A DNA stretch of 64,000 bases. Origin: a virus (taxonomy: Duplodnaviria > Heunggongvirae > Uroviricota > Caudoviricetes). Shown here in pieces: positions 18,716 to 62,820 of this stretch; the stretch's first letter is position 1; each line of letters begins with the position of its first letter. The position numbers and the translations under genes are program-made. The notes below the pieces were generated by a model that saw only the letters and a program-made list of their open reading frames with translations, searched no databases and was not told where the DNA came from. The DNA is taken from the IMG/VR virus record IMGVR_UViG_2799113095_000002; one strand, written 5' to 3'.

Positions 18716-19569
18716 CGGCCCCCGGCCTTCGCGGAGCGGACGCCGGGTGGCGGCGTGGTCGGGGGGTGCCCGGCGTGCCGCTTCTTCGGGGCGAGGGTGA
18801 TCTCGATGTAGCCGGTGTCCTTCTTGCGGGTGTTCCTGCGCACCAGGCCCGGCCACTGCTTCTCCAGCTCCTCGACGCTGAAAGCGACCTTGGCGGGGGT
18901 TCTTTGGAACTCACCGGGCGCCTGGCAGCCGCCAGGGTCCGTGTAGTAGTTCGCTTGGGCGGCAATTCCGTCGTGCCGGACTGTGCCACCGTCGTACCAC
19001 CATGCGCGCAGGCTCGTTTCGTGCTCGTCCTTGTACGGGACGGTGAACTCGTGGACGGGATGGCCGGGCCGGTTGAAGAACCCGATCACGGTGAAGATCA
19101 GAAATCGGAGGCCTTCGCTGACGCGGCCCGGCGACATGTAGAAGGCATTGACGACCGGCGACAGACCCCACACGTACAGGTCCCGCCCAGCGGTCTCGGT
19201 GAACATCCGCCGGAACAGTGAATCCACATCAGCCACGGGGCGAAGGGTTTTCGAGTCCACTGCCTCCACCAGGCCCGTCACGTCGTCGTCCAGGCACACA
19301 ATCGGGGTACCAGGCGCGAACTGGGTGGGTATGTAGGTCCGCTGTGCCGTGATACCGCGCATCGGGGTGGCGTTGAGGCGGACACCCGTCCTGCCGGCCA
19401 CCTCCTGGTAGGCCTCCAGCTGCGGATCGTTGTCGTGGAGGAACACCGTGATCCGGGCCGGGTCCACTCCGGTCGCGTTCAGCCAGGCGAGCGTCTTCCG
19501 CTCCAGCCCTTCGGCGCGCTGGTAGGAGGGGATCACGATCTGGTACTCGCGGGCCGGGGCGCGCCTCAC
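18712..19569 (-). CDS. GT-A fold glycosyltransferase (DxD type)
   Basis: N-terminal YQIVIPSYQR resembles the GT2 VIPTYNR motif; a DxD-like IVCLDDDV follows. GTG start overlaps the oxygenase stop. Confidence 0.55.
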   Translation of the reverse strand: MRRAPAREYQIVIPSYQRAEGLERKTLAWLNATGVDPARITVFLHDNDPQLEAYQEVAGRTGVRLNATPMRGITAQRTYIPTQFAPGTPIVCLDDDVTGLVEAVDSKTLRPVADVDSLFRRMFTETAGRDLYVWGLSPVVNAFYMSPGRVSEGLRFLIFTVIGFFNRPGHPVHEFTVPYKDEHETSLRAWWYDGGTVRHDGIAAQANYYTDPGGCQAPGEFQRTPAKVAFSVEELEKQWPGLVRRNTRKKDTGYIEITLAPKKRHAGHPPTTPPPGVRSAKAGGR

Positions 19570-20405
19570 TAGGGCTGCCTCCGCTCAGCGATGAGCCGCG
19601 CCTGATTCTGCTCCCGAGCGGTGCGCGCCTTTTGGGCGTATTCAGTCTCCAATGCACCCTCCAAGCACGATTTCATGCCCTTGAGGGCGTAATAGACGAC
19701 GCTCAGCCGGTATCCGTCCGGCTTACGGAGCTGCATCGGGGTGACCCCATGCACCAGCTGATGACCCGGGAAGAAGACCGCGGTGCTGTCTCGGCACGGC
19801 AGCACCACCCCGTACTCGGGGATGTGCAGGTGCCCACCGTTCATGCCGCGCCGGAACACTGGCATCGCGCTCCAGGTTGGGAAGTTGAACCCGTCGCGGT
19901 GGTAGGGCAGCGTCGAGCTCCGGTTGATGACACCCGAAGTCCAGAGCTCGGAATCGCCCAGCTTCCAGGTAGATCCGACCTGGAGCATGGTTTCCCGGTC
20001 GCGGGCCTCGATTTTCGCGTCAATTTGGCGGAGCATCCTCGCCAGCGCCCCGGCCCACGCATCCAGCGCTGCCTCGGCTGCCGGGAACTCCTTGGCGACA
20101 CCGGACGCCCGGCACGCGTCGCGGCTGTAGCTTGGCCGCCGGGGCTGGTACCCGAAGTTGGCCGACAGGTTCTTCGCGCCCGACGCACGCCGCAGATCCG
20201 TGTACTTCAATGACAGGCAGGCCCGCCGCAGATCCGGCGCCTCCACCGGCAGCACCGCCATCACGGTCTCACCGGTATCGGCGTCTGTAGCGATGAATGG
20301 CTCGCTGTGGGTCGGCTCGTGCTCCCCGACCCGCGTACCGACGAGGGTTGTCGCCTCCTCCGGGCTCACCACCCGCCGTAAACTCAGCCGCTCCACCGGT
20401 GTCAC
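19569..20405 (-). CDS. 2-oxoglutarate/Fe(II)-dependent dioxygenase
   Basis: HxD (PYHRDGF), distal His (LVHGVTP) and RxS (YRLSVV) 14 residues later form the classical 2OG-oxygenase triad plus 2OG-binding Arg. GTG start at 20405 overlaps the ParB-like stop (GTGA). Confidence 0.6.
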   Translation of the reverse strand: MTPVERLSLRRVVSPEEATTLVGTRVGEHEPTHSEPFIATDADTGETVMAVLPVEAPDLRRACLSLKYTDLRRASGAKNLSANFGYQPRRPSYSRDACRASGVAKEFPAAEAALDAWAGALARMLRQIDAKIEARDRETMLQVGSTWKLGDSELWTSGVINRSSTLPYHRDGFNFPTWSAMPVFRRGMNGGHLHIPEYGVVLPCRDSTAVFFPGHQLVHGVTPMQLRKPDGYRLSVVYYALKGMKSCLEGALETEYAQKARTAREQNQARLIAERRQP

Positions 20406-21097
20406 TCCGCGACCGCTGGCGCTGCGTCCAGCGCGGTCTCTTCCTGCTTGAGCAGGTGCACCAACACGGATGCGTTGCTCTCCAGTGCGTGAGCGTCCGC
20501 CACCCGCTGCAACGTCTCGACCACCCACAGGTACTCGTCGCCGACGAACGTCATCACGACCATCCGCTGGTCGGACTGGTCATAGTTGGTCTTCAAGTCC
20601 TCCAGGGACGTTGCGGTGCCCTGGTTTCCGGCCAACTCGTCCTCCGGCACCGGTTCCAGCTCCTCCAGGGCCGCCGCCAGGTCATCGAGATCGTCTTGCA
20701 CGTAACCGGTGCCATCCAGGGTGTCCAGGGACTCCAGGATTTCCAGCAACGCCTCGTTGTCGTACCCACCCAAGGCTGGGATCTTGTTGTCAGCAACGAC
20801 AATCGCCTTGGCCTGCTGCTCATCCACGTCCACCAGCCAGCAGTCGATATCTGCCCAGCCGAGTTCCCGCGCCGCGAGCAAGGTGTGGTTACCGGCCAAC
20901 ACCTCGTTGGGGCGCCCGGTGTGCGTCCCACGGTTCACCACGATGGGCCGGTACTGGCCATTGGCGGTAAGCGAGGCCGCGATATCCGGGACCGAACCTC
21001 TACGCGGGTTGCCCTTGAAGGTTTTTAGCTGGGACACGGGTAGCCGCGCAGCCGAATTAACTGCGGTACCTGCGGTGTTAACTGTGGGGTCAGTCAT
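20402..21097 (-). CDS. ParB-like nuclease domain (ParB/Srx fold) protein
   Basis: N-terminal KGNPRRGSVPDIAASLTANGQYRPIVVNRGTHTGRPNEVLAGNHTLLAARELGW matches the ParB N-terminal domain pattern. Acidic C-terminal half. Confidence 0.6.
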   Translation of the reverse strand: MTDPTVNTAGTAVNSAARLPVSQLKTFKGNPRRGSVPDIAASLTANGQYRPIVVNRGTHTGRPNEVLAGNHTLLAARELGWADIDCWLVDVDEQQAKAIVVADNKIPALGGYDNEALLEILESLDTLDGTGYVQDDLDDLAAALEELEPVPEDELAGNQGTATSLEDLKTNYDQSDQRMVVMTFVGDEYLWVVETLQRVADAHALESNASVLVHLLKQEETALDAAPAVAE

Positions 21098-29709: not shown

Positions 29710-30182
29710 CACGCCAGCTCCTCGCTTGTGAAGATCAGAGGTGCGAGCTCGCTCCACGCTTGACCAAGGTCACGACGCAGGAGCTCGATAGACCAATTGG
29801 CCGACCAGTCCCGTATCGGTTTCAAAGCCTCACGGGCAGTGGCGTTCATTGCGTCGGTCATCGTCCGGTAGTACGCGGGACCGCCGTCTTCTTCCACCCA
29901 TGCCCGTTGCGTGGCTTTGATAGCAGGGTCAGACATGGGGTTCTCCAGCGTTCCAGCCCTTGAGGCCTCCAGCGCGGCATTAAGCCGTTTGACAGCAGAC
30001 CTTTTCGCGGCCTCGGTTGGTAGTGACTCGTACCGCTTTAGCCATCTAGCGCCTGCCTCCTCCGCCCCTATGGCATCGGCCAGCTCAGCATCGGTGCGTT
30101 GCTCGGGGTCTGGGAAACATTCAAGTTCACGAGCCCGAGCTACGAGCTTGTCTCGGAATGCACTCGATTCCGTCATCGCCAT
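29709..30182 (-). CDS. hypothetical helical protein
   Basis: 157-aa ORF with an Ala/Glu/Arg-rich helical composition. Confidence 0.45.
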   Translation of the reverse strand: MAMTESSAFRDKLVARARELECFPDPEQRTDAELADAIGAEEAGARWLKRYESLPTEAAKRSAVKRLNAALEASRAGTLENPMSDPAIKATQRAWVEEDGGPAYYRTMTDAMNATAREALKPIRDWSANWSIELLRRDLGQAWSELAPLIFTSEELA

Positions 30183-31030
30183 CTACTTCGACTGACGGCG
30201 ATGTTGTGTGCGTTTCGGATCGCGCCGGAGAGTCGGGCTTCGGACCTGGTACCGCGAGTACGCCAGTGCCGCTGGTACATATCAACCAACCACGTGTTGA
30301 TCCGAACCCAGTCCGGGGTATCCGGCAGAGGCTCGGTCGAGATGAAGTGCTCCAGACTCCAGGTCAGATCCGCGAGCCAGCTCTTCACCTCGGGGAGCGA
30401 GGTCTCGCCGCGCCGAACGCGGAGCAGCGCATCACGATGGGCCTTGACCATCGGCAGGTGCAGCTTCCTCTCCGTGACGAGCTGGATACCCTGCATGCCG
30501 AGGCGCAGGGCGTGATACGCGTACTTGGTGTCGAAACCGTACTGTTCGATGAGTTCGGGCCGGTTGGTGTGCCGGTGATGGGTACCTTCGAGTCCTTCAC
30601 GCTGAGAGTTCAAGTAGCTCAAGAACTTCTGTCCAGCCTGCGTGGTGACGAACATCTCCGAGGCTGCCTGAAGTTCGGCGCCGAGTTGGCTTTTCACCGT
30701 CAGCTCATTGTCGGGTATCCAAAGCATCAGCAGCACTGAGGGATTGCCATTGGCGGCCAGCCGTGTCCACTTCCGCAGGCTGTAGACACACAGATCGAGG
30801 TCGCCGGGGCCGGAGCGGGCGCCGTCCGGTTGGGTGCGGTACATGTACTGCTCGAACTTCTCCAAACCGATTACGGCCTCGGGAGGTTCGATGCAGATGC
30901 CCATTTCGTCGCGGTCGTCGGCGCCGGTCGTGACACCATGCAGGCCGGAGCCGACCTGCCCACGAAGAATCGTGTTCTCGTCCGCGATAGCGCGGTGCCG
31001 CTCCGTGCCGTGGCGTGCTTCTGTACTCAC
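30173..31030 (-). CDS. Pol-beta-superfamily nucleotidyltransferase (GS-x9-DDxDE motif) with a roughly 160-aa C-terminal helical domain
   Basis: LRGQVGSGLHGVTTGADDRDEMGICIEP matches the hG[GS]x9-13 Dh[DE] nucleotidyltransferase signature. GTG start overlaps the upstream small ORF stop. Confidence 0.55.
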   Translation of the reverse strand: MSTEARHGTERHRAIADENTILRGQVGSGLHGVTTGADDRDEMGICIEPPEAVIGLEKFEQYMYRTQPDGARSGPGDLDLCVYSLRKWTRLAANGNPSVLLMLWIPDNELTVKSQLGAELQAASEMFVTTQAGQKFLSYLNSQREGLEGTHHRHTNRPELIEQYGFDTKYAYHALRLGMQGIQLVTERKLHLPMVKAHRDALLRVRRGETSLPEVKSWLADLTWSLEHFISTEPLPDTPDWVRINTWLVDMYQRHWRTRGTRSEARLSGAIRNAHNIAVSRSRWR

Positions 31031-31194
31031 AGTCCACGCTCCAAGTGCTTCTTGAATTGCTTCTTGTCCATGACAATTCCCGTTGTCCAGTCCGGTGTAG
31101 CAATGGTTTTCGCTAGCGCGCAGTCCGTTTCAGTCGTGAACGGGCCAACGTGCTTCCCGTTGAGCCGGTTCACGATATGGAAAGGGCCGCTACT
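31030..31194 (-). CDS. small hypothetical protein (about 54 aa), locally lower GC
   Basis: MSSGPFHIVNRLNGKHVGPFTTETDCALAKT..., found by hand. GTGA overlap with the nucleotidyltransferase start. Confidence 0.3.
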
Positions 31195-31415
31195 CATCGG
31201 GAGGTGGCCGTTCTACCGTCGATGATTTTCTGGATGAGTTGGGGGCTGCACTTCACGGCGGTGGCGAGAGTGGCGTGGGTCCACTTCTCGCGCTCGTTCG
31301 TCCAGAGTTCCCGTACGAGCCGGTCGCGCTGGCTTCGGTGCTGGCTGGCGGAGTCGCGCTCTTCCCCGGCCAGCCGGTGGTGCTCGCGGGCTTGCTGTGC
31401 CCTCGGGTCCATCAA
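31194..31415 (-). CDS. small HTH DNA-binding protein
   Basis: C-terminal WTHATLATAVKCSPQLIQKIIDG looks like a helix-turn-helix. Confidence 0.4.
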   Translation of the reverse strand: MMDPRAQQAREHHRLAGEERDSASQHRSQRDRLVRELWTNEREKWTHATLATAVKCSPQLIQKIIDGRTATSR

Positions 31416-31846
31416 CGTCCCCTGATGTCCACGCGGCGGCGGGATATCTTCTCGATCGCGGTGATGGCTTCCTCTCCGGGGTCTTCGATCTCGAAGATGC
31501 CGTGCTCTGCTGCGTCACGGCCTGACTCGAACAGCGGGACAGGGCTCACATATTCGAATGCGGCCTGTACGTCTTCGGGAGACAGCGCGCCCGTGGCCGC
31601 GCCGATGCGTATCGCAAGTAGTTCCTCGCCGCCGTGGCAGCCGACCCAGCCCGCACAAAGCCGGGCCGCTGCGTCGGCGGCGTCCGTCTGGTGGCACAGG
31701 AACAGGCCGGGCGGCTGCTCCGAGGTGGGGCCGTCGTAGGCGATGAGTTTCTGATACTCGGTGGCATGCCACACGCCGCTGGGTACGTCCTCCCGGTAGG
31801 GGCACGACGCGCAGGGGCGCGGCGCGGGGCCGCCGACCCTGCCCAT
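31412..31846 (-). CDS. Cys/His-containing hypothetical protein co-transcribed downstream of rsr
   Basis: CASCPYR...LFLCHQ...CAGWVGCHGG. ATGA overlap with the rsr stop. Confidence 0.45.
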   Translation of the reverse strand: MGRVGGPAPRPCASCPYREDVPSGVWHATEYQKLIAYDGPTSEQPPGLFLCHQTDAADAAARLCAGWVGCHGGEELLAIRIGAATGALSPEDVQAAFEYVSPVPLFESGRDAAEHGIFEIEDPGEEAITAIEKISRRRVDIRGR

Positions 31847-31848
31847 CG

Positions 31849-33549
31849 TTACAGGTCACCTCGGGCGAAGTCCGAGATGAGCTGCGGTACAGCGCTATCG
31901 AACCCGGACACGTCGAGCTGGCGCGGGTCCGAAGGATCTGCGATGGTCTGCCGACCGCCGGTCATCGCGACCACCATCAGGCTGGTGTCCAGGCTGAGCT
32001 TGTTCCGGTACTCGGTGAGAGCCTGGTGCGGGTGGATACCCCCGTACCAGGTCTCGTTGTCGGTGAGGATCACGATGGCGTCGTAGGGGCGAAGCTGCGC
32101 CTTCGCCCAGATCATGGGGAGCGCGCAGTCGGTAGCGCCCATAGGGAGGCCTGCGGTGTATCGGCACACGTCATCGAGGCGGCGGCGCGGCGTGATGTCC
32201 AACTCCGTGATCCCTGATGAGCGGAAGCTCCCACCGGCCCCGGCGGTGAACCCGATGATGTCGTGGTTGGGCTCCACGTTGGCGGTCACCAGTGCGAGCG
32301 CGGCGGCGGCCTCGCGGCACGTCAGCGGCATACCGGAGATCGCGGCGCTCATGGAGCCGGAGATGTCCAGTGCCAGCAGGGTCCGCTTACCCGAGGGCTC
32401 GACGGCGCCGTAGGCGTTGTAGAACGCGGCGTCGAGCGCGTCAACGATGCGGCGGTTCGGAGTCCAGGTGGACTCACCGCGCGCAGAACGCCCAGAGGCA
32501 TAGGTGCGCTGTGCGACAAGGACATTGATCGGGTGGACGCGGCCCTTTCGTAGCCGGTCTGTGTCCTGGAGCTGCGCGGAGACCCGGCTGCCGAGCTGAC
32601 CGTTCAGCACGCCGAGGCGGGTTAGGCGGGGCAGCTGCCGCATGAGGGCGGTCTGCGGGAGGCCGTGCTCGATCAGCGCCTCCCAGATCGCAGGCTCGGT
32701 GAGGGCCTTGTCGGGGAACGCCTCCCACGGTAGGCCGTTGCCCCGGCGGATGATCGCCAGCCACTCGTTGACGGTGGTGGCACGCTGCGCGGCTTCGTAG
32801 TCCGCGATGATGGCAAGCGGGTGCCCGTCAGCCAGTTCCACATTGGGCAGCTTCGGTAGAGCGGGGTTGCGCTCTCCGGCCTTGAGCTGCTCCGGAGTGA
32901 GGAGCGGCTGCTTCCAGTTGTAGTCGTTGAGCCCCTTGCCGACAGCCCAGTTGAACGCCATGCGGCGTGCGGGGTCGCTGGTGGCGGGGCCGCTGAGCCG
33001 GAGCATGTCGCGGTGGGTCCAGCCGTCACGCTGCCGGTACTTGACCAGCTGGTAGGCGAGCCGGTCCACGGGCTTGTCCAGGTACCAGCTGGAGACGGCG
33101 CGCTTCATCGCCGGTCCCCAGCCCCGGAACTGCTCCATGTACTTGGTGAACAGGTACAGGTGGGTGGCGGTGCGCGCGACTCGGGGCAGTGCGGCGGCGG
33201 CGGCACGGCGGCCTTCCACGTTCTCGGAGGCCGAAGCGATAGCGAGCGCGAACAGGGCCGGGTTCTGCTTGGGGGCGCGTCCGGCCTCGGAGACCTCAAC
33301 GATCTTCTGCACGAGGGTGACGGGATCGGTTGCGGCGAGCCGGATCACGACATCGGCGGCGTCGCGGGTGAGGTCCTCGGCGGAGGTGTAGTAGGTGCCG
33401 CCGGTCGTGCCGAGGGTCAGGAATCGGTGGAGCCGGGTCCAGTCGTCGGCCTGGAAGGTGTAGCCCCCGGCGGCGTTCTTGACCTGGCGCGGGTCCGCCT
33501 TCTGGGCCTGAGGGGTGCGCCGCGTGCTGATCGAGGATAGAACGTCCAC
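31849..33549 (-). CDS. rsr: Ro60/Rsr-like ribonucleoprotein (TROVE domain plus C-terminal vWA domain with MIDAS DxSxS)
   Basis: 566 aa. GTG start with an AGGAG RBS 6 nt upstream. vWA MIDAS LLALDISGSMS...T...D. Size and domain order match bacterial Rsr. A Y-RNA-like array lies immediately upstream. Confidence 0.75.
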   Translation of the reverse strand: MDVLSSISTRRTPQAQKADPRQVKNAAGGYTFQADDWTRLHRFLTLGTTGGTYYTSAEDLTRDAADVVIRLAATDPVTLVQKIVEVSEAGRAPKQNPALFALAIASASENVEGRRAAAAALPRVARTATHLYLFTKYMEQFRGWGPAMKRAVSSWYLDKPVDRLAYQLVKYRQRDGWTHRDMLRLSGPATSDPARRMAFNWAVGKGLNDYNWKQPLLTPEQLKAGERNPALPKLPNVELADGHPLAIIADYEAAQRATTVNEWLAIIRRGNGLPWEAFPDKALTEPAIWEALIEHGLPQTALMRQLPRLTRLGVLNGQLGSRVSAQLQDTDRLRKGRVHPINVLVAQRTYASGRSARGESTWTPNRRIVDALDAAFYNAYGAVEPSGKRTLLALDISGSMSAAISGMPLTCREAAAALALVTANVEPNHDIIGFTAGAGGSFRSSGITELDITPRRRLDDVCRYTAGLPMGATDCALPMIWAKAQLRPYDAIVILTDNETWYGGIHPHQALTEYRNKLSLDTSLMVVAMTGGRQTIADPSDPRQLDVSGFDSAVPQLISDFARGDL

Positions 33550-33573
33550 CGTGAGCTCCTTGCTGGGTTAGGT

Positions 33574-33650
33574 GGCGCGGGCGTGTGAGTGACCGCCGGG
33601 GTTCATCCAGTTTCGAGGTTGGGGTAACCGACCGTCGTCCTGCTCGCGCC
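33574..33650 (-). ncRNA. Y-RNA-like module 1 (minimal: conserved 5-prime and 3-prime boxes only, no tRNA-like domain)
   Basis: On the minus strand it carries the shared boxes GYGAGCAGGACG...GGUCGGUUAYC (5-prime) and CCGGUCA...CACACGCCC (3-prime). Terminal GGCGCG/CGCGCC can pair. Confidence 0.45.
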
Positions 33651-33668
33651 AAAAGGGGGTTCGGGGTG

Positions 33669-33787
33669 ATGTGGGCGTGTATGTGCTGACCGGGATTTCG
33701 CTTTTACACCCGCACCGAGGCGCGAGCGACAGGGGTCGAACCTGCATTACCAATTGAGTGATAACCGACCGAGCGTCCTGCTCACAT
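33669..33787 (-). ncRNA. Y-RNA-like module 2 with tRNA-like D-loop and T-arm elements
   Basis: Minus strand: box GUGAGCAGGACGCUCGGUCGGUUAUC, then CUCAAUUGGUAAUG (D-loop-like), CAGGUUCGACCCCUG (T-arm), and 3-prime box CCGGUCAGCACAUACACGCCCAC. Confidence 0.55.
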
Positions 33788-33821
33788 CGAAAAGCTATGG
33801 AGTTATTGATGATTCGCGTAG

Positions 33822-33966
33822 GTGGTGCGGGCGTGTGATTGCTGACCGGTGTTTTAGGTGCTCTACCAAGCTGAGCTATACGGACGCACTACGCGCCCGC
33901 AGCTGGATTTGAACCAGCGACCACCCGCTCCAGATGCGATAACCGATCCTGCGTCCTGCTCACACC
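33822..33966 (-). ncRNA. Y-RNA-like module 3 (YrlA-type): circularly permuted tRNA-like domain flanked by the conserved terminal boxes
   Basis: Minus-strand order: 5-prime box, T-arm GCUGGUUCAAAUCCAGC, closed acceptor hairpin CGGGCGC-GUAGU-GCGUCCG (7 bp), D-arm UAGCUCAGCUUGGUAGAGCA, 3-prime box CCGGUCAGCAAUCACACGCCC. Confidence 0.6.
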
Positions 33967-33986
33967 ATCTACTACGAAGCCTTGGG

Positions 33987-34122
33987 GATGATGCGGGCGT
34001 GTGTGTGCTGACCGGGGGTAAGCGCTCTACCGACTGAGCTACAACCACTTTCGCGGCTGACGGGACTCGAACCCGCGACCTTTCCATTAGAAGTGGTAAC
34101 CGACCTGCGTCCTGCTCGCATC
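33987..34122 (-). ncRNA. Y-RNA-like module 4 (permuted tRNA-like domain)
   Basis: Minus strand: 5-prime box GCGAGCAGGACGCAGGUCGGUUACC, T-arm GCGGGUUCGAGUCCCGU, acceptor-like hairpin, D-arm GUAGCUCAGUCGGUAGAGCGC, 3-prime box CCGGUCAGCACACACACGCCCGC. Confidence 0.6.
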
Positions 34123-34146
34123 ATCAATGTGAAGTTGTATCCGGGA

Positions 34147-34314
34147 TGGCGTGGGCGTGTGAGGTGCTTACCGGCGTTGATCTTGGATCAATGCATTCGG
34201 CCGCTCTGCCACGTTCCGCCCGATGAAAGCCCGAAGCTCTTTCAAGCAGCCCGGCGGGATTCGAACCCGCGATCTGATGATTTTCAGATAACCGACTCGC
34301 GTCCTGCTCACGCC
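34147..34314 (-). ncRNA. Y-RNA-like module 5 (longest; permuted tRNA-like domain with Ser-type D-arm and extra hairpins)
   Basis: Minus strand: 5-prime box GGCGUGAGCAGGACGCGAGUCGGUUAUC, T-arm GCGGGUUCGAAUCCCGC, extended acceptor hairpin, D-arm GGCAGAGCGGCCGAAUGC, hairpin UUGAUCCAAGAUCAA, 3-prime box CACCUCACACGCCCACGCC. Confidence 0.55.
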
Positions 34315-34334
34315 ATCCATGTTTTTGTTGACTA

Positions 34335-34360
34335 CGCCAAGAACTATACCTCAGTAATGC
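34335..34360 (-). promoter_or_regulatory. candidate promoter (-10 TATAGT on minus strand) for the Y-RNA/rsr transcript
   Basis: AT-richer 150-bp gap between the immunity gene and module 5. The minus strand reads ...GAGGTATAGTTCTTGGCG about 35 nt upstream of module 5. No clear -35. Confidence 0.25.
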
Positions 34361-34472
34361 CTGTTCAGGGCATATTTTTTGAGGAAATGTTGATTCGCTG
34401 GAAGGTGACTCCCGTACCGGGGAAAGTATGCCGTCGAGGCCCTCGACCTGGCTACCGAATATCGGTGCCAGC

Positions 34473-35222
34473 TCAGTGAGGTACTTCGTCTAGGCCGTTC
34501 TCGCGGAGGGTCGCGGTGACCGCCTCCACGACGCGCGTAGCGGGCCAGTCGTCGGGCGCGGAGATCAGGGTGCCCCCGGCCAGCTCGGTCTTTGTGAGAA
34601 GGTCAACGAGATGGTCAATCTCGCCGACTTCCTTGCTGATCCAGGTGCGGTATCCGGCACCGATCTTCCAATTGTTGCGCCGAGCAAGGCGCATTGCCGC
34701 AAGATCAGTGAGGGTGAAAGTGGCGGGCTGCCAGGTTGAAGCCACAGCGGCGCACACCTTGTCGCCAACCTCGCTAGAGACGCCGCCCGGCGCGGTCTCG
34801 GTCAGGTCGATGTGGAGGTTGTGCGCCGGCAGTCTCCCGCCGAGACCGATAGACCCCGCACCGATGAAGACCTTGGCAGTGATGGCAGGACCGACGCCCT
34901 TCAGGACGATCGAGTACCCCTCCCTGGGGAGAGCATCGCCGCTGGCGCCGTCAGGGAGTGCTTCGCGCACCGGGCAGCTCCGAACGATGTCGGCCAATGC
35001 CTCGCTGGGCCCAGCCCAAGTCTCCCAGTGGTGCCCCTTCGGGATGTCCCACTGCGCGATTCCCAGATCCGTTCCTAGCTGCGTCAGCAGCGCATCGGTG
35101 CGCGCCGCGATCCATTCGGGTGATTCGCCGGTCGCGACCCAGAACGCGTTCACGAACGACTCTCTCGCCCAGACGGGAGACGCGTTGGTTGGCCCGTTCA
35201 CAGCATCGAATTCTACGGTCAT
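34473..35222 (-). CDS. putative immunity protein of the polymorphic toxin system
   Basis: 249-aa ORF whose ATG overlaps the toxin stop (ATGA). Assigned by the toxin/immunity gene-order convention only. Confidence 0.45.
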   Translation of the reverse strand: MTVEFDAVNGPTNASPVWARESFVNAFWVATGESPEWIAARTDALLTQLGTDLGIAQWDIPKGHHWETWAGPSEALADIVRSCPVREALPDGASGDALPREGYSIVLKGVGPAITAKVFIGAGSIGLGGRLPAHNLHIDLTETAPGGVSSEVGDKVCAAVASTWQPATFTLTDLAAMRLARRNNWKIGAGYRTWISKEVGEIDHLVDLLTKTELAGGTLISAPDDWPATRVVEAVTATLRENGLDEVPH

Positions 35223-37102
35223 GGCTTCTCCGGGGTGTAGATCACGTCAACGTCGAGACCGCGGCCCTCTAGCAGATTCCGAATTATCGCTGCGCTCTGT
35301 GGGTTAGCGACGTGCCACTCAAGGCCAGTCTCAGGGGGCAGGACGCGTATCTGTCGCTGAGCCTCTCTGACGAGCTCGTTCTGGATGTTCTCAGTCCACG
35401 GCGCATCTGGACTCTTGATCAGGGGCGTGTAGTTGTGCTTTGCGTCTAGGAACACCTGCTGATTGCCCCGTTCGATGGGTCCGCTGTCGAATCTGACCAC
35501 CTCGCCGGTCTCGGGGTTGGTCATGACGTACTCGGGGATGCGTCCGTCAGGTGTTCGTTCGATACCCGTGATCTGCTCCTGGAAGCCCATCCAGGGCTTG
35601 TCGGGACCACGGTTGACATGCTCCCAACCTGGCGTGGGGTCACCCTTGGTCCAGGTTGCCTCTGGGGTGTGGGGCGGCCACCCACCCGGATGGTGCGGAT
35701 CGCCCGACGTGTAGTGCTGCCCCACGCTGGGGTCGAACTGATCGGGTGTCGGTAGTTGGTGCTGGGTTGGGGGTGGGGAGTGGTCGGCGACCGTGGGCGG
35801 TGGATGGTCTACAACCGGCGCGGGGTGGGTTGCGTCACTCGGGTCTGCGGTGTGCGCTGCGGGTGCTGGTGTGTCATGGAGTGCGCCGGGGCTCGGAAGG
35901 TCCGGGTGCGCGCCCAGGCGTGCAGCGGCGGCTTCTTCGAGTCCAGCGCGTGGCAACAGGCCTTCGGGACCGCCTGCCATTAGCGCCCCGCCATCGACCA
36001 GTTTTTCCCCGAAGTATTGGCCGGGGTTTTCGATGTTGTGCTTGATGCCTTCGGCGATATCGGCGCCCGGCGGGGTGGTCATGTGGTGCTTAAAGGACTC
36101 CCATTCTCGCCTACCGGCCTCTTCATTGGCCTCCCAAAAACCCTTGTCCCCCAACCCAAGACGGTCCCGCAGATCCGTGAACGGCGCAACCAACTTATCG
36201 ACGCCCTTGTCAATGCCCTCGGAAATATCCGTCTTGAAACGCTCGGCAGCCGATGGTTTGTGCTCCTCCGGTGGCTTGTCGTTGCGATTCAGGTAGGTGA
36301 CGCTTTCGCCCAGGCCACCCACCTTGGTCTTGTCGATAGTGTCCTTAGCGAACGGGCCGTACTGCGGGGCATTCGGATCGGCAGCAGCGGTGGCAGCGGT
36401 CGGGGTTGTCGCGGGATTCTTGATGTGCTCCAGCTTGTCGCCGAGCGTCCCGGCACCAGGATCGATGGAGGCCGGATCGGTGGCCTTGGGGTACCAGTCC
36501 TTGTAGAAGTTCGCGGGCTGGGCGCTCGGGTCGCCGGGCTTCGGGGTCGCGGCGTCGCGCAGGGCCTTGCGCCCGTCCACAAGCGCCGTTTTGGGGTTGA
36601 TGCAGCCGGTGATCGTTTGGGCGGTGGCGTCGGCCTGGGTTTTGAGGGTTTGACAGCCCTTCTCCCACTTGGCGACATACTCTTCGATCTGCCGTTGGAT
36701 GTCGGCGACGTGGGCGCGGTTTCGGGCTATCGAGTCATCGCTTTCACCCTCGGCGGGGTGGTAGTCCATCTTGTAGTCCTGAGCGATGGAGACGCCCTGG
36801 TCCTTGTGCGCCAGCACGCTCTCGATGAGGCGTTGGCCGTTGACCAGGGGATCGACCACCTCGTATTGGATGGTGGCGGCAACGAGTTTTCCGCCGTCTT
36901 CGGCGGTGTCGTGGGTGTTATCCGAGCCGTGGCAATCAGTGGATGCAGTGTCATAGGCGGCGTTCGAGGTGCGCCCGGTCCATTCGGTGCCATCGGGAGC
37001 CCCGACCCACCGTTTGTATTCGTCGTAGATTTCCTTGAACTGCCGGGTCTGTGGAAGCCAGGTATCCACCACCGCCATATAGTCATTGGCCTTCTTGGCC
37101 AT
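35219..37102 (-). CDS. polymorphic toxin: N-terminal WXG100-type (T7SS/ESX) secretion domain, long Pro/Thr/His-rich linker, C-terminal PD-(D/E)xK nuclease-like toxin domain
   Basis: ORF 35219..37231 trimmed to MAKKANDYMAVVDTWLPQ (or the GTG 21 nt upstream, which has an AGGGGG RBS). WxG motif KRWVGAPDGTEWTG. C-terminal EYVMTNPETGEVVRFDSGPIERGNQQVFLDAKHNY carries D...D-A-K. Confidence 0.6.
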   Translation of the reverse strand: MAKKANDYMAVVDTWLPQTRQFKEIYDEYKRWVGAPDGTEWTGRTSNAAYDTASTDCHGSDNTHDTAEDGGKLVAATIQYEVVDPLVNGQRLIESVLAHKDQGVSIAQDYKMDYHPAEGESDDSIARNRAHVADIQRQIEEYVAKWEKGCQTLKTQADATAQTITGCINPKTALVDGRKALRDAATPKPGDPSAQPANFYKDWYPKATDPASIDPGAGTLGDKLEHIKNPATTPTAATAAADPNAPQYGPFAKDTIDKTKVGGLGESVTYLNRNDKPPEEHKPSAAERFKTDISEGIDKGVDKLVAPFTDLRDRLGLGDKGFWEANEEAGRREWESFKHHMTTPPGADIAEGIKHNIENPGQYFGEKLVDGGALMAGGPEGLLPRAGLEEAAAARLGAHPDLPSPGALHDTPAPAAHTADPSDATHPAPVVDHPPPTVADHSPPPTQHQLPTPDQFDPSVGQHYTSGDPHHPGGWPPHTPEATWTKGDPTPGWEHVNRGPDKPWMGFQEQITGIERTPDGRIPEYVMTNPETGEVVRFDSGPIERGNQQVFLDAKHNYTPLIKSPDAPWTENIQNELVREAQRQIRVLPPETGLEWHVANPQSAAIIRNLLEGRGLDVDVIYTPEKP

Positions 37103-37136
37103 GAACTCATCCAGTGGCGTCACCACGCGCGTGCCC

Positions 37137-37457
37137 CTATGCCCGCTTCGGTGGCTGATAGATGCTGGGCAGATTGCCGTACCCGGCCGCCAGTGAACTC
37201 TCCGTGATCTTGAAAGCTTGCTGGGCCTCATCAGCGAAATCAGCGATCGTATTCAACCGCGCTGCCCCGATCCGCTTCACATCCGCGATGGCCTTGGACA
37301 CTCCATACAGCGCCGCCAAACCTGGATCAGCACCAGCCGGTGGCGAGACACTGGCCGCCGTGCTCTGCGTCAGCTGACCGGCGAGCGTCCTCAGATGCGG
37401 ACCGAGCTTCCCCAAGGCCGCAAGATCAAACTTGAGAACGTTCTCATCGCCCGACAT
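37137..37457 (-). CDS. small helical protein upstream of the toxin (possible secretion partner or chaperone)
   Basis: ORF 37137..37496 trimmed to MSGDENVLKFDLAALGKL, which has a GAAGGGGG RBS. About 106 aa. 35 nt upstream of the toxin start. Confidence 0.4.
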   Translation of the reverse strand: MSGDENVLKFDLAALGKLGPHLRTLAGQLTQSTAASVSPPAGADPGLAALYGVSKAIADVKRIGAARLNTIADFADEAQQAFKITESSLAAGYGNLPSIYQPPKRA

Positions 37458-62336: not shown

Positions 62337-62645
62337 ATGAGCGCTATGAGTACGTTGTATTCGGTTCCGAACGAGACCCTGTCCCAGACGGTGGCCCGCC
62401 GAATCCGGGGGCTGCTCGGGGAGAAGCGCATCTCTCAGGCCAAGTTCGCCAAGATGCTGGAGACGAACACCGCGAGCATGTCGCGGCGGCTCTCAGGCGA
62501 GTACCCCATCGACCTGGCTGAGGTTGAAAAGTATGCAGCCGCACTGGGGGTGTCCCCAATGCGGCTGTTGACTGGTCGGCCTGACGGCAGTGGCCCCGAT
62601 GGACCGGATGTGCGCCCGAAGGGATTCGAACCCCTAACCTTCTGA
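62337..62645 (+). CDS. XRE-family HTH immunity repressor whose 3-prime end is fused to host tRNA-Arg sequence (integration-truncated form)
   Basis: HTH TLSQTVARRIRGLLGEKRISQAKFAKMLETNTASMSRRL. The last 11 codons (RPKGFEPLTF, stop) are encoded by the 3-prime half of the tRNA-Arg gene on the opposite strand. Confidence 0.7.
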   Translation: MSAMSTLYSVPNETLSQTVARRIRGLLGEKRISQAKFAKMLETNTASMSRRLSGEYPIDLAEVEKYAAALGVSPMRLLTGRPDGSGPDGPDVRPKGFEPLTF

Positions 62646-62683
62646 TCCGTAGTCAGATGCTCTATCCGTTGAGCTACGGGCGC
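62611..62683 (-). tRNA. tRNA-Arg (anticodon ACG)
   Basis: Minus strand reads GCGCCCGUAGCUCAACGGAUAGAGCAUCUGACUACGGAUCAGAAGGUUAGGGGUUCGAAUCCCUUCGGGCGCA, a cloverleaf with anticodon loop CUACGGA. No encoded CCA. Confidence 0.8.
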
Positions 62684-62731
62684 TTACTATTCAATTGTTG
62701 CAGGTCAACAGGTTTGGCCTGCAGACCGACG

Positions 62732-62820
62732 CGGAGGCGAGAGGATTTGAACCTCCGGTCCCCCGTAAAGGGGACAACTCATTAGCAGTGAGTCCCATTC
62801 GGCCGCTCTGGCACGCCTCC
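62732..62820 (-). tRNA. tRNA-Ser (anticodon GCU), long variable arm
   Basis: Minus strand reads GGAGGCGUGCCAGAGCGGCCGAAUGGGACUCACUGCUAAUGAGU...GGUUCAAAUCCUCUCGCCUCCG; 89 nt. Confidence 0.8.

What the first reader, a model, noticed from the sequence alone, without database searches (positions are those of the whole stretch)
33822..34314. Circularly permuted tRNA-like domains inside modules 3-5
Read on the minus strand, each module runs in this order: 5-prime box, variable segment, canonical T-arm (for example GCUGG-UUCAAAU-CCAGC, or GCGGG-UUCGAAU-CCCGC), then an acceptor stem closed by a 4-5 nt loop (CGGGCGC-GUAGU-GCGUCCG in module 3), then a canonical D-arm (UAGCUCAGCUUGGUAGAGCA), then the 3-prime box. 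That is a tRNA opened at the anticodon loop with its acceptor ends joined. The 5-prime/3-prime box helix sits where the anticodon stem would be. The D-arms differ by module (Ser-type GGCAGAGCGGCCGAAUGC in module 5), as if captured from different tRNAs. tRNA scanners would miss them and could miscall fragments.
Basis: seen in the sequence. Interest (0 to 1): 0.8.

Follow-up and report, generated by a model that had tools for sequence, protein, structure and literature searches.

The report
Prophage Y RNAs with tRNA-like domains
The permuted tRNA-like domains are real, but they are the already described tRNA-mimicking part of bacterial Y RNAs (YrlA type), here as five tandem copies in front of the Ro60/Rsr gene of a Mycobacterium abscessus-type prophage.

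Summary
Observation confirmed. On the minus strand, modules 3-5 each run: closing helix, V hairpin, T arm, closed acceptor-like hairpin, D arm, closing helix. The acceptor pairs in exact tRNA register (mean 6.4/7 pairs; 1.7-3.9 when slid). Across 21 distinct cores from homologous prophages, 94.7% of cells pair, 13 of 17 pairs show changes on both sides, and the 15:48 Levitt pair covaries. De-permuted in silico, 16/16 constructs are called tRNA by ARAGORN; native modules 0/8.

This is known biology. The array ends 23 nt upstream of a Ro60/Rsr gene (TROVE + vWA_Ro60) on the same strand. Rfam's YrlA model aligns to modules 3 and 4, and module 4 is colinear with the experimentally characterised M. 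smegmatis YrlA. Chen et al. 2014 and Wang et al. 2018 describe this architecture and call it circularly permuted tRNA-like.

Modestly new points:
- Five modules sit in tandem: three YrlA-type, one YrlB-like, one minimal.
- The core in slot 3 is swapped like a cassette between related prophages.
- Module 5 has a class-II core whose D arm matches the resident tRNA-Ser(GCT) at 19 of 20 positions.
- The V hairpins look like anticodon arms.
- Public phage records leave these RNAs unannotated or call them tRNAs.

Function is inferred: Rsr-bound tRNA mimics in RNA decay or repair.

The parts
34144..34318 (-). Module 5: YrlA-type Y RNA (175 nt) with a class-II (Ser-like) tRNA-like core. Terminal stem GGAUGGCGUG/CACGCCAUCC; 5' box 34289-34308; V hairpin 34272-34289; T arm 34254-34270; long acceptor-like arm 34212-34253; D arm 34192-34211; extra hairpin 34177-34191; 3' box core 34154-34160.
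   Evidence: In tRNA register the acceptor pairs 5/7 with tandem A.G; in homologue L007 these positions become G-C and A-U. The D arm matches tRNA-Ser(GCT) of the window at 19 of 20 positions. The de-permuted construct is called tRNA.
33987..34125 (-). Module 4: YrlA-type Y RNA (139 nt), the closest counterpart of M. smegmatis YrlA. 5' box 34097-34116; V hairpin (loop CUUCUAA) 34082-34098; T arm 34060-34076; 7-bp acceptor hairpin with GAAA loop 34042-34059; D arm 34023-34041; 3' box core 33996-34002.
   Evidence: Rfam YrlA core hit, 33.4 bits, E=2.9e-5. Colinear with M. smegmatis YrlA. The published YrlA-5' probe matches at 22 of 23 positions, 34099..34077. Acceptor 7/7, D stem 4/4.
33818..33972 (-). 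Module 3: YrlA-type Y RNA (155 nt; further flanking pairing extends it to 33813-33978). 5' box 33940-33960; V hairpin (loop AUCUGGA) 33924-33940; T arm 33902-33918; acceptor hairpin 33879-33901 (7 bp in tRNA register plus 2 more, G73 C74); D arm 33859-33878; 3' box core 33830-33836.
   Evidence: Full-length Rfam YrlA alignment, 37.9 bits, E=1.5e-6. Acceptor 7/7, D stem 4/4. The T-acceptor core is replaced in L004, L005 and L203; in L005 the flanks are nearly identical, in L203 and L004 less so.
33668..33788 (-). Module 2: YrlB-like Y RNA (121 nt) with T arm 33729-33745 and a 7/7 acceptor-like hairpin 33707-33728, but no D arm.
   Evidence: no D arm found; aligned with M. smegmatis YrlB.
33573..33651 (-). 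Module 1: minimal Y RNA-like unit (79 nt) with the closing helix and boxes only, and no tRNA-like arms.
31849..33549 (-). rsr: Ro60 orthologue (566 aa). Its start codon lies 23 nt downstream of module 1 on the same strand.
   Evidence: Pfam TROVE 6.8e-50 and vWA_Ro60 3.5e-56. PHROG 850 RNA-binding protein 8.7e-100. NCBIfam RNA-bind_Rsr 8.1e-140. 67% identical to M. smegmatis Rsr.
34343..34348 (-). -10-like hexamer TATAGT, about 25 nt upstream of module 5: candidate promoter of the array-rsr transcript (inferred).
   Evidence: Read from the sequence. A similar GGTATAGC precedes the array in prophiGD43A-5. The consensus scan found no full sigma-70 promoter.
30173..31846 (-). Downstream genes in the same orientation: DUF6283 (31412-31846), two small ORFs, and an RlaP-family nucleotidyltransferase (30173-31030). 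This is an RNA-repair-type neighbourhood.
   Evidence: Pfam DUF6283 6.3e-38 and RlaP 2.3e-35. PHROG 388 nucleotidyltransferase 3.1e-64. Same gene order in L224-L227.

Best explanation
The region is a tandem array of five Y RNA genes on the minus strand, immediately upstream of the Ro60 orthologue (rsr) of a Mycobacterium abscessus-type prophage and probably co-transcribed with it.

Each unit is closed by a variable 6-12 bp terminal stem. That stem flanks a conserved, bulged box region (5' AGCAGGACG-N3-4-GUCGGUUA; 3' CCGGUCAGCA-N3-ACACGCC), which is the presumed Rsr-binding module.

Modules 5, 4 and 3 are YrlA-type. Inside the closing helix they carry a V hairpin, a canonical T arm, an acceptor stem closed by a loop, and a D arm, that is, a circularly permuted tRNA mimic expected to fold into the tRNA L-shape. 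Module 2 is YrlB-like (T arm and acceptor hairpin only). Module 1 is a minimal unit.

By analogy with characterised Y RNAs, the closing helix docks on the Rsr ring, and the tRNA-like module is the effector-binding or recognition surface. It is seen by tRNA enzymes (TruB, Dus, RNase P, CCA-adding enzyme) and may tether Rsr to an RNA decay or repair partner.

Modules 3 and 4 have exact 7-bp acceptor stems like M. smegmatis YrlA. They are therefore predicted to be cut by RNase P 5' of position 1. The 5' fragment would then be trimmed and completed to CCA; module 3 already encodes G73-C74.

Shown here: the architecture, the covariation, the homology to validated YrlA/YrlB and the link to Rsr. Inferred: expression, Rsr binding, processing, and the biological role in the prophage.
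For: - The flanking ORF is Ro60/Rsr.
- Rfam YrlA (RF02553) aligns end to end to module 3 (E=1.5e-6) and to the core of module 4 (E=2.9e-5), with T, acceptor and D in the same order.
- Module 4 is colinear with M. smegmatis YrlA and module 2 with YrlB. The published YrlA-5' probe matches at 22 of 23 positions.
- tRNA-register geometry and covariation hold: all 7 acceptor pairs, 3 of 5 T pairs and 2 of 4 D pairs change on both sides. The Levitt 15:48 pair is C:G in 18 cores and U:A in 3. U8, A14, G53, T54, T55, C56 and A58 are invariant and G19 nearly so.
- ARAGORN de-permuted constructs as tRNA, 0/8 native modules and 0/160 controls.
- The terminal stem sits in a fixed register outside the boxes: 7.5/9 paired versus 1.5-4.9 when slid.
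- The same arrays occur in at least 18 related prophage contigs, all next to rsr where the flank is held.
Against: - Both Rfam YrlA scores (37.9 and 33.4 bits) are below the gathering score of 69. However, the experimentally validated M. smegmatis YrlA also scores only 45.1 bits.
- The published GNCGAAN0-1G motif is absent from the 5' strands. It is also absent from M. smegmatis YrlA and YrlB.
- Single-sequence folding energies are not better than shuffles (z from -1.7 to +0.7), so thermodynamics alone gives no support.
- There is no expression, binding or processing data for this prophage.
- No consensus promoter was found.
- Module 5 departs from the family consensus: it has UG instead of UA at positions 8-9, a 3-bp class-II D stem and a long acceptor arm with a tandem A.G.
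Confidence: 0.92

Rival explanations
1. Isoacceptor-specific tRNA decoys or adaptors. The three different cores (Ser-like class II; UCU-loop type; CUG-loop type) each mimic a particular tRNA, including its anticodon arm. They would either soak up or redirect tRNA-specific enzymes or tRNA-targeting toxins, or give the Rsr particle several alternative specificities. This extends the main explanation rather than excluding it.
For: The module 5 D arm matches tRNA-Ser(GCT) at 19 of 20 positions, and its V arm abuts the T stem as in class-II tRNAs. The V hairpins of modules 3 and 4 have anticodon-arm geometry with U33 and R37, and their loop sequences are conserved in very distant phages. Slot 3 carries different cores in different prophages. 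A polymorphic toxin cassette and an RNA-repair-type nucleotidyltransferase flank the locus.
Against: The acceptor and T arms of module 5 do not resemble tRNA-Ser. The loop 'anticodons' vary among close homologues (UCU, UGU, and 8-nt loops). No tRNA-targeting toxin was identified here. Nothing was tested experimentally.
Confidence: 0.12
2. Decayed tandem (dimeric) tRNA genes: non-functional remnants of a phage tRNA cluster that only look like permuted tRNAs because the T arm of one relic is followed by the D arm of the next.
For: The Rfam tRNA model scores 40.3 bits across two adjacent modules in L001. Phage Sparky has a real tRNA cluster directly upstream of its Y RNA. Chen et al. warn that dimeric tRNAs can mimic YrlA hits. 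The 5' box resembles a D arm.
Against: Acceptor strands are joined by 3-9 nt loops (longer, structured arm in module 5) and pair 6-7/7 with compensatory changes across prophages, which implies selection on the hairpin. The boxes and terminal stems are conserved in every unit. The position next to rsr on the same strand is constant in all loci. The M. smegmatis homologue is expressed and Rsr-bound.
Confidence: 0.03
3. True circularly permuted tRNA genes that are processed into functional decoding tRNAs: the closing helix is excised, the ends are ligated, and the acceptor loop is opened by RNase P/Z, as in some algae and archaea.
For: Modules 3 and 4 contain every tRNA arm, including an anticodon-arm-like V hairpin and a 5-nt variable loop. 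They have 7-bp acceptor stems, and M. smegmatis YrlA is cut by RNase P and receives CCA. Wang et al. raise this possibility.
Against: The loop 'anticodon' is not conserved among close homologues, and some have 8-nt loops. The V stems have only 3-4 good pairs. No RNA ligase or splicing endonuclease gene was found among the neighbours examined. The conserved boxes point to a protein-binding role for the closing helix. Module 5 has no anticodon-like loop.
Confidence: 0.02

Closest known systems
Mycobacterium smegmatis YrlA and YrlB (Chen et al. 2014, RNA 20:1715; PMC4201824)
   Same: Same position (directly upstream of rsr, same strand). Same closing-helix boxes (AGCCGGACGUCGAUCGGUUA versus AGCAGGACGCAGGUCGGUUA...CACACGCC). 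Same V hairpin (CCACUUCUAAUGG), T arm, 7-bp closed acceptor stem, UA linker and D arm in module 4. Module 2 parallels YrlB (T arm, no D arm).
   Different: M. smegmatis has two modules; this prophage has five, three of them with a full tRNA-like domain. The acceptor hairpin sequences are unrelated (CCGCCCU/AGGGCGG versus CAGCCGC/GUGGUUG). Module 5 has a class-II-like core with a long acceptor arm. The locus is on a prophage. Nothing has been tested experimentally here.
Salmonella Typhimurium YrlA: Rfam RF02553, crystal structure PDB 6CU1 (Wang et al. 2018, bioRxiv 10.1101/312249)
   Same: Order of elements (closing stem, variable region, T arm, closed acceptor stem, UA, D arm). Conserved tertiary-contact nucleotides, the Levitt pair, and YUAY at the start of the V region.
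   Different: The Salmonella acceptor stem is 6 bp and is not an RNase P substrate. It has no V hairpin with anticodon-arm geometry. The rsr-yrlBA-rtcBA operon is RtcR/sigma-54 controlled, whereas here there is no rtcB or rtcA nearby. Rfam scores here are far below the gathering cutoff.
Y RNA-like RNAs of other phages (mycobacteriophages such as Sparky, Caulobacter phage CcrColossus, Microbacterium phage Magritte, Thermus phage phiLo Yrl1/Yrl2; PMC4201824, PMC12135203)
   Same: Encoded just upstream of a phage Ro60/TROVE gene. CcrColossus has several tandem modules, one 93% identical to module 3 over the V hairpin and T arm. Magritte and Sparky each carry a module-4-like unit.
   Different: Numbers and core types differ. 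Several are annotated as tRNAs or not at all. The phiLo Yrls are described with a CGAA-bulge motif, and the tRNA-like terms I searched for in that paper gave no matches.
Circularly permuted tRNA genes of Cyanidioschyzon merolae and some archaea (cited in 10.1101/312249)
   Same: The acceptor stem is first a closed loop, and the 5' and 3' ends of the transcript pair with each other.
   Different: Those precursors mature into decoding tRNAs through ligation. Here the closing helix carries conserved protein-binding boxes, the 'anticodon' is not conserved, and the RNAs belong with Ro60.

Membership tests
YrlA-type bacterial Y RNA (Chen et al. 2014; Rfam RF02553) | Encoded within about 4 kb of a Ro60/Rsr (TROVE) gene, on the same strand | tested here: met
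   The array lies at 33573-34318 (-), and rsr at 33549-31849 (-) starts 23 nt after module 1.
YrlA-type bacterial Y RNA (Chen et al. 2014; Rfam RF02553) | The 5' and 3' ends pair to form the stem that carries the Ro60-binding site | tested here: met
   A terminal stem of 6-12 bp sits directly outside both boxes in all five modules: 7.5/9 paired versus 1.5-4.9 when slid, with 23 distinct sequence combinations. Binding to Rsr itself cannot be tested here.
YrlA-type bacterial Y RNA (Chen et al. 2014; Rfam RF02553) | GNCGAAN0-1G motif in the 5' strand of the Ro-binding stem | tested here: inconclusive
   The strict motif is absent from the 5' strands of all five modules. It is equally absent from the validated M. 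smegmatis YrlA and YrlB, which share the window's box (GCMGGACG-N3-RUCGGUUA). So the motif is not diagnostic for mycobacterial members.
YrlA-type bacterial Y RNA (Chen et al. 2014; Rfam RF02553) | tRNA-like T arm (5-bp stem, loop UUCRANY) | tested here: met
   5/5 stem pairs in modules 2-5. G53, T54, T55, C56 and A58 are invariant in 21 cores, and 3 of 5 pairs show compensatory changes.
YrlA-type bacterial Y RNA (Chen et al. 2014; Rfam RF02553) | Closed acceptor-like stem-loop directly between the T arm and the D arm | tested here: met
   No spacer after the T stem and exactly 2 nt before the D stem. Pairing is 7/7 (M3, M4) and 5/7 with tandem A.G (M5). All 7 pairs covary.
YrlA-type bacterial Y RNA (Chen et al. 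2014; Rfam RF02553) | tRNA-like D arm preceded by UA, with A14, R15, G18G19 and A21 | tested here: met
   M3 and M4 have UA-GCUC-AG..GG.A-GAGC. M5 is a variant: UG-GCAG-AGCGGCCGA-AUGC, class-II type.
YrlA-type bacterial Y RNA (Chen et al. 2014; Rfam RF02553) | Levitt pair 15:48 kept through compensatory change (G15:C48 or A15:U48) | tested here: met
   C48:G15 in 18 cores and U48:A15 in 3 cores, with none unpaired.
YrlA-type bacterial Y RNA (Chen et al. 2014; Rfam RF02553) | Conserved YUAY at the start of the V region | tested here: met
   UUAU or UUAC follows the GUCGG strand in all five modules.
YrlA-type bacterial Y RNA (Chen et al. 2014; Rfam RF02553) | Rfam gathering score (69 bits) | tested here: not met
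   37.9 bits (M3) and 33.4 bits (M4). This is a property of the model rather than of the family: the experimentally validated M. smegmatis YrlA scores 45.1 bits, and all other actinobacterial and phage members tested score 30-49 bits.
YrlA-type bacterial Y RNA (Chen et al. 2014; Rfam RF02553) | [quoted passage not shown] | not testable with these tools
   Only sequence prerequisites can be read: U55, 7-bp acceptor stems in M3 and M4, and G73-C74 encoded in M3.
Canonical tRNA gene | Cloverleaf in the order acceptor 5', D, anticodon, T, acceptor 3', detectable by tRNA scanners | tested here: not met
   ARAGORN and Rfam at gathering threshold find only the two genuine tRNAs at 62610-62820. Native modules give 0/8 calls. 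The best tRNA hit in the array is 25.3 bits, below 29, and needs a 46-nt insertion.
Circularly permuted tRNA genes that mature into decoding tRNAs | Conserved, functional anticodon loop | tested here: not met
   Loop triplets differ among close homologues (UCU, UGU, GCU), some loops are 8 nt, and module 5 has no such loop.
Circularly permuted tRNA genes that mature into decoding tRNAs | Processing junction recognised by a splicing endonuclease or ligase | not tested
   No ligase or endonuclease gene among the neighbours examined. A bulge-helix-bulge motif was not searched for.
tmRNA (including two-piece permuted forms) | tRNA-like domain plus tag-peptide reading frame | tested here: not met
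   ARAGORN finds no tmRNA. Only an 18-nt T-arm fragment matches the Rfam tmRNA model (14.1 bits versus 47).

The most novel reading that the evidence does not exclude
The prophage array is a set of whole-tRNA mimics with distinct identities (a class-II Ser-like core, a UCU-loop type and a CUG-loop type). Their V hairpins are functional anticodon-arm mimics, and their cores are exchanged like cassettes between prophages. Each module would then direct the phage Ro60 particle to, or protect the cell from, a different tRNA-specific enzyme or tRNA-targeting toxin. [quoted passage not shown]
Probability: 0.12. Interest if true: 0.7.

Novelty: new member of a known kind. Interest (0 to 1): 0.3.

Why it matters
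The tRNA-like domain is textbook for bacterial Y RNAs, so the finding mainly matters as a correct identification and an annotation fix. These RNAs are unannotated, or annotated as tRNA-Thr, tRNA-Gln or tRNA-Arg, in public phage records. The Rfam YrlA model also misses actinobacterial and phage members, including the validated M. smegmatis RNA.

Beyond that, the array is a natural comparison set for an open question: what does the tRNA-like module of YrlA bind? It offers three co-resident, diversified cores on one Rsr-binding scaffold, cassette swaps at one slot between related prophages, and V loops conserved across distant phages. The relic-like D-arm-shaped 5' box, anticodon-arm-shaped V hairpin and host-tRNA-like D arm also fit the dimeric-tRNA origin model for Y RNAs. 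Because the host is the pathogen M. abscessus, where prophages shape fitness and phage therapy outcomes, a prophage-encoded Ro60/Y RNA system is worth testing.

Tried and rejected
- Genome-contig scan with single-protein peptide patterns from Rsr: 46 stretches, none confirmed.
- Single-sequence MFE folding: z-scores from -1.7 to +0.7 and wrong local folds for modules 4 and 5. I relied on comparative evidence instead.
- My first acceptor search chose the best-pairing 7-mer and mis-registered module 5. I replaced it with a D-arm anchor that does not depend on acceptor pairing.
- A fuzzy-regex probe search over the whole window timed out. I redid it ungapped on the array.
- Supplementary tables of Chen et al. 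2014 and the two Wolin-lab reviews (PMC10870794, PMC6542706) are not held. I could therefore not check how many modules per phage were previously listed.
- I first took the CcrColossus 'tRNA-Gln' and Magritte 'tRNA-Arg' BLAST hits as independent tRNA references for the origin of modules 3 and 4. I rejected this on finding that both lie directly upstream of Ro/TROVE genes and are Y RNA modules themselves.
- I considered that a 5-6 module array might be unique to this prophage lineage. I rejected that: CcrColossus has up to six T-arm modules and M. fortuitum three.
- Consensus promoter scan: nothing found.
Full report
**What is there.** Read on the minus strand, window 34318-33573 holds five tandem units separated by 14-29 nt. 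Unit 1 is followed after 23 nt by the GTG start of a 566-aa ORF (33549-31849). Every unit begins with AGCAGGACG-N3-4-GUCGGUUA and ends with ...ACACGCC. Directly outside these two boxes lie 6-12 nt that differ between units but pair with each other (GGAUGGCGUG/CACGCCAUCC in module 5, GAUGAUGCG/CGCAUCAUC in module 4, and so on). The units are:

| Module | Window (minus strand) | Length | Type |
|---|---|---|---|
| M5 | 34318-34144 | 175 nt | YrlA-type, class-II (Ser-like) core |
| M4 | 34125-33987 | 139 nt | YrlA-type |
| M3 | 33972-33818 | 155 nt | YrlA-type |
| M2 | 33788-33668 | 121 nt | YrlB-like |
| M1 | 33651-33573 | 79 nt | minimal |

**Checking the observation.** I tested the tRNA reading without fitting. 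I anchored only on the T loop (UUCRA), and separately on a D arm defined by U8, A14, a GG in the loop and A21. In this set-up the T stem pairs 5/5. The 7 nt immediately 3' of the T stem pair with the 7 nt immediately 5' of U8-N9 at a mean of 6.37/7 over 27 cores with 17 distinct acceptor combinations. Registers slid by 1-3 nt give 1.7-3.9.

On an alignment of 21 distinct cores from this window and homologous prophages, the T, acceptor and D helices plus the 15:48 Levitt pair form standard pairs in 94.7% of cells, versus 30-55% when slid. Of 17 pairs, 13 change on both sides, including all seven acceptor pairs, and 0 of 500 shuffles reach the observed values for four of the five measures (1 of 500 for the number of further pair types). 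The Levitt pair is C48:G15 in 18 cores and U48:A15 in 3. U8, A14, G53, T54, T55, C56 and A58 are invariant, and G19 nearly so.

As a direct test of 'permuted tRNA', I joined acceptor-5' strand + D arm, a generic anticodon arm, and variable loop + T arm + acceptor-3' strand + N73 + CCA. ARAGORN called 16/16 such constructs as tRNAs, 0/8 native modules, and 0/160 constructs with shuffled arms.

**What it is.** The ORF that follows is a Ro60 orthologue:
- Pfam TROVE 6.8e-50 and vWA_Ro60 3.5e-56.
- PHROG 850 'RNA-binding protein' 8.7e-100.
- NCBIfam RNA-bind_Rsr 8.1e-140.
- 67% identity to M. smegmatis Rsr.

A permissive Rfam scan aligns the YrlA model ('Y RNA-like', RF02553) end to end to module 3 (37.9 bits, E=1.5e-6) and to the core of module 4 (33.4 bits, E=2.9e-5), with T arm, acceptor hairpin and D arm in the same order.

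Chen et al. 2014 (PMC4201824) defined this family. The RNAs are encoded next to Ro60 on the same strand. Their ends pair to form the Ro60-binding stem, which encloses a V region, a T arm, an acceptor-like stem-loop and a D arm. The authors found them in 254 bacteria and 22 phages, including mycobacteriophages. The RNAs carry pseudouridine 55 (made by TruB) and dihydrouridine (made by DusA). M. smegmatis YrlA, which has a 7-bp acceptor stem, is cut by RNase P and receives CA to complete a CCA end. YrlB, between YrlA and rsr, has only a T arm, and both are processed from one precursor.

Wang et al. 2018 (bioRxiv 10.1101/312249) solved the structure of this domain. It has a tRNA L-shape with the same tertiary contacts. 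[quoted passage not shown]

I fetched the M. smegmatis locus (L229). Module 4 is colinear with YrlA, sharing boxes, V hairpin CCACUUCUAAUGG, T arm, a 7-bp acceptor of unrelated sequence, UA and D arm. Module 2 parallels YrlB. The published YrlA-5' probe matches module 4 at 22 of 23 positions.

The sub-threshold Rfam scores are not evidence against membership. The validated M. smegmatis YrlA scores only 45.1 bits against a gathering score of 69, and other actinobacterial or phage members score 30-49. The published GNCGAAN0-1G motif is absent from the window modules, but also from M. smegmatis YrlA and YrlB.

**Context.** The window is a siphovirus-type prophage:
- minor tail proteins, tape measure, capsid, protease, portal and terminase at 0.3-18.3 kb;
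- a replication initiator at 45 kb;
- RecE/RecT at 54.6-56.8 kb;
- all on the minus strand.

It is distantly related (about 78%) to M. abscessus prophages prophiT37-1 and prophiGD43A-5. The identical Rsr protein occurs in assemblies GCA_900135135.1 and GCA_001296325.1 and in many sequencing runs. The closest named homologues are from Mycobacteroides abscessus. Downstream of rsr are DUF6283 and an RlaP-family nucleotidyltransferase, which Pfam describes as 'RNA repair pathway'. Upstream are a 249-aa ORF and a polymorphic toxin with a weak Tox-REase-5 C-terminus.

**How it most likely works.**

Shown here: the architecture, the selection on the helices, the homology to validated YrlA and YrlB, and the constant linkage to rsr.

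Inferred from the family:
- The array is transcribed with rsr. A -10-like TATAGT lies at 34348-34343, and a similar element precedes the array in prophiGD43A-5, although no consensus promoter was found.
- The transcript is cut into units.
- Each unit docks on the Rsr ring through the bulged box helix.
- The tRNA-like module is the surface seen by tRNA enzymes and by a still unknown effector. In other systems, Y RNAs tether Ro60 to PNPase.
- Modules 3 and 4 have exact 7-bp acceptor stems and should be RNase P substrates. Module 3 encodes G73-C74 just as M. smegmatis YrlA encodes A73-C74.
- Module 5, with a 12-bp arm containing a tandem A.G that continues into a further hairpin, should stay closed.

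**What goes beyond the published picture (all modest).**
1. Copy number. Using one simple box pattern, M. smegmatis, M. franklinii and phage Sparky show two units with one full tRNA-like domain, while this prophage lineage shows 5-6 units with three. This is not unique: M. fortuitum has three T-arm units, and CcrColossus has up to six upstream of its TROVE gene.
2. Cassette exchange. In slot 3, the T-acceptor core differs completely between related prophages, while the flanks stay almost identical between the window and L005 and are less conserved in L203 and L004.
3. Module 5 is class-II-like. Its D arm matches the genuine tRNA-Ser(GCT) at 62731-62820 at 19 of 20 positions, and its V hairpin abuts the T stem with one intervening nucleotide, as a long variable arm does. 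Its T arm and acceptor are not Ser-like.
4. In modules 3 and 4 and many homologues, the V hairpin has anticodon-arm geometry: a 3-5 bp stem, a 7-nt loop with U33 and R37, then a 5-nt RGGUC linker to the T stem. The loops are conserved across distant phages: AUCUGGA in module 3 and CcrColossus, and CUUCUAA in module 4, M. smegmatis, M. fortuitum and Magritte, where the stem changes CCA/UGG to UCA/UGA. Together with a 5' box that folds like a D arm, this fits the dimeric-tRNA origin model cited by Wang et al.. It also means the closing helix leaves the core between the D arm and this hairpin, not at an opened anticodon loop.
5. Annotation. ARAGORN calls the module-4 homologue of prophiGD43A-5 and of another prophage tRNA-Thr(tgt). 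GenBank carries that call, as well as 'tRNA-Gln' in CcrColossus and 'tRNA-Arg(tct)' in Magritte. All three sit directly upstream of Ro genes. prophiT37-1 has no annotation there.

**Rivals.**
- Decayed dimeric tRNA genes are unlikely, given the compensatory change in the acceptor hairpins, the conserved boxes and the constant linkage to rsr.
- Permuted genes for decoding tRNAs are unlikely because the loop triplet varies among close homologues and some loops have 8 nt.
- An isoacceptor-specific decoy or adaptor role is not excluded. It is the most novel reading, and I put it at about 0.12.

**Verdict.** It is a member of a known family (YrlA/YrlB Y RNAs next to Ro60). The interest is modest: an expanded, diversified prophage array, and clear annotation and Rfam-model gaps.

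Noticed in passing
L002 5893-5971 (prophiGD43A-5 gene 51); L205 841-919; L233 1479-1546 (CcrColossus); L234 1487-1563 (Magritte gene 117): Y RNA modules directly upstream of Ro/TROVE genes are annotated or called as tRNA-Thr(tgt), tRNA-Gln and tRNA-Arg(tct). The scanners use the 5' box as a D arm and the V hairpin as an anticodon arm.
   Followed up: yes
window 34082-34098 and 33924-33940 (-); L229, L230, L232, L233, L234: The V hairpins have anticodon-arm geometry (7-nt loop, U33, R37, then a 5-nt RGGUC linker). Their loop sequences are conserved between a mycobacterial prophage, M. smegmatis, a Microbacterium phage and a Caulobacter phage.
   Followed up: partly
L233 1250-2310 (CcrColossus); L230 1860-2260 (M. 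fortuitum): CcrColossus has up to six T-arm-bearing modules upstream of its TROVE gene, three of them hit by Rfam YrlA. One encodes ACCA right after a 7-nt acceptor 3' strand. M. fortuitum has three T-arm modules.
   Followed up: partly
L229 2239-2303; also L230-L234: The experimentally validated M. smegmatis YrlA scores 45.1 bits against Rfam RF02553 (gathering score 69). All actinobacterial and phage members tested fall below threshold, so the model under-detects this branch.
   Followed up: yes
L001 6076-6233: The Rfam tRNA model scores 40.3 bits (above its gathering score of 29) by joining the D arm of one module to the T arm of the next across 158 nt. This is a false tRNA produced by tandem Y RNA paralogues.
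   Followed up: no
window 34357-34373: A 17-bp inverted repeat, ATGCCTGTTCAGGGCAT, flagged as terminator-like on the + strand, lies just upstream of the -10-like TATAGT that precedes module 5. It could be an operator or a terminator for the upstream gene.
   Followed up: no
window 34473-35222, 35219-37231, 37137-37457 (-): A polymorphic-toxin cassette lies directly upstream of the array: a 627-670 aa protein with a weak Tox-REase-5 C-terminus, a 249-aa ORF with no family match (possible immunity protein), and a small upstream ORF. The DNA around the toxin N-terminus and the small upstream ORF matches the polymorphic toxin / WXG-motif gene pair annotated in other M. abscessus prophages at about 87%.
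   Followed up: partly
window 30173-31846 (-): DUF6283 and an RlaP-family nucleotidyltransferase ('RNA repair pathway') follow rsr in the same orientation. The order is conserved in four of five related contigs; DUF6283 is missing in one.
   Followed up: partly
window 19569-20528 (-): An ORF matching PHROG 6059 'queuine tRNA-ribosyltransferase' (2.9e-82), next to the terminase end of the structural module. It may be a DpdA-like DNA-modification enzyme rather than a tRNA enzyme.
   Followed up: no
window 62610-62820 (-): Genuine tRNA-Arg(ACG) and tRNA-Ser(GCT) genes lie near the right end of the window, possibly near the prophage/host junction. The tRNA-Ser D arm matches that of Y RNA module 5 at 19 of 20 positions.
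   Followed up: partly
L232 1881-2439 (phage Sparky): A cluster of four tRNA genes (Ser, Pro, Trp, Tyr) sits immediately upstream of Sparky's Y RNA and Ro gene. This is in line with the idea that Y RNAs arose from tRNA clusters.
   Followed up: no
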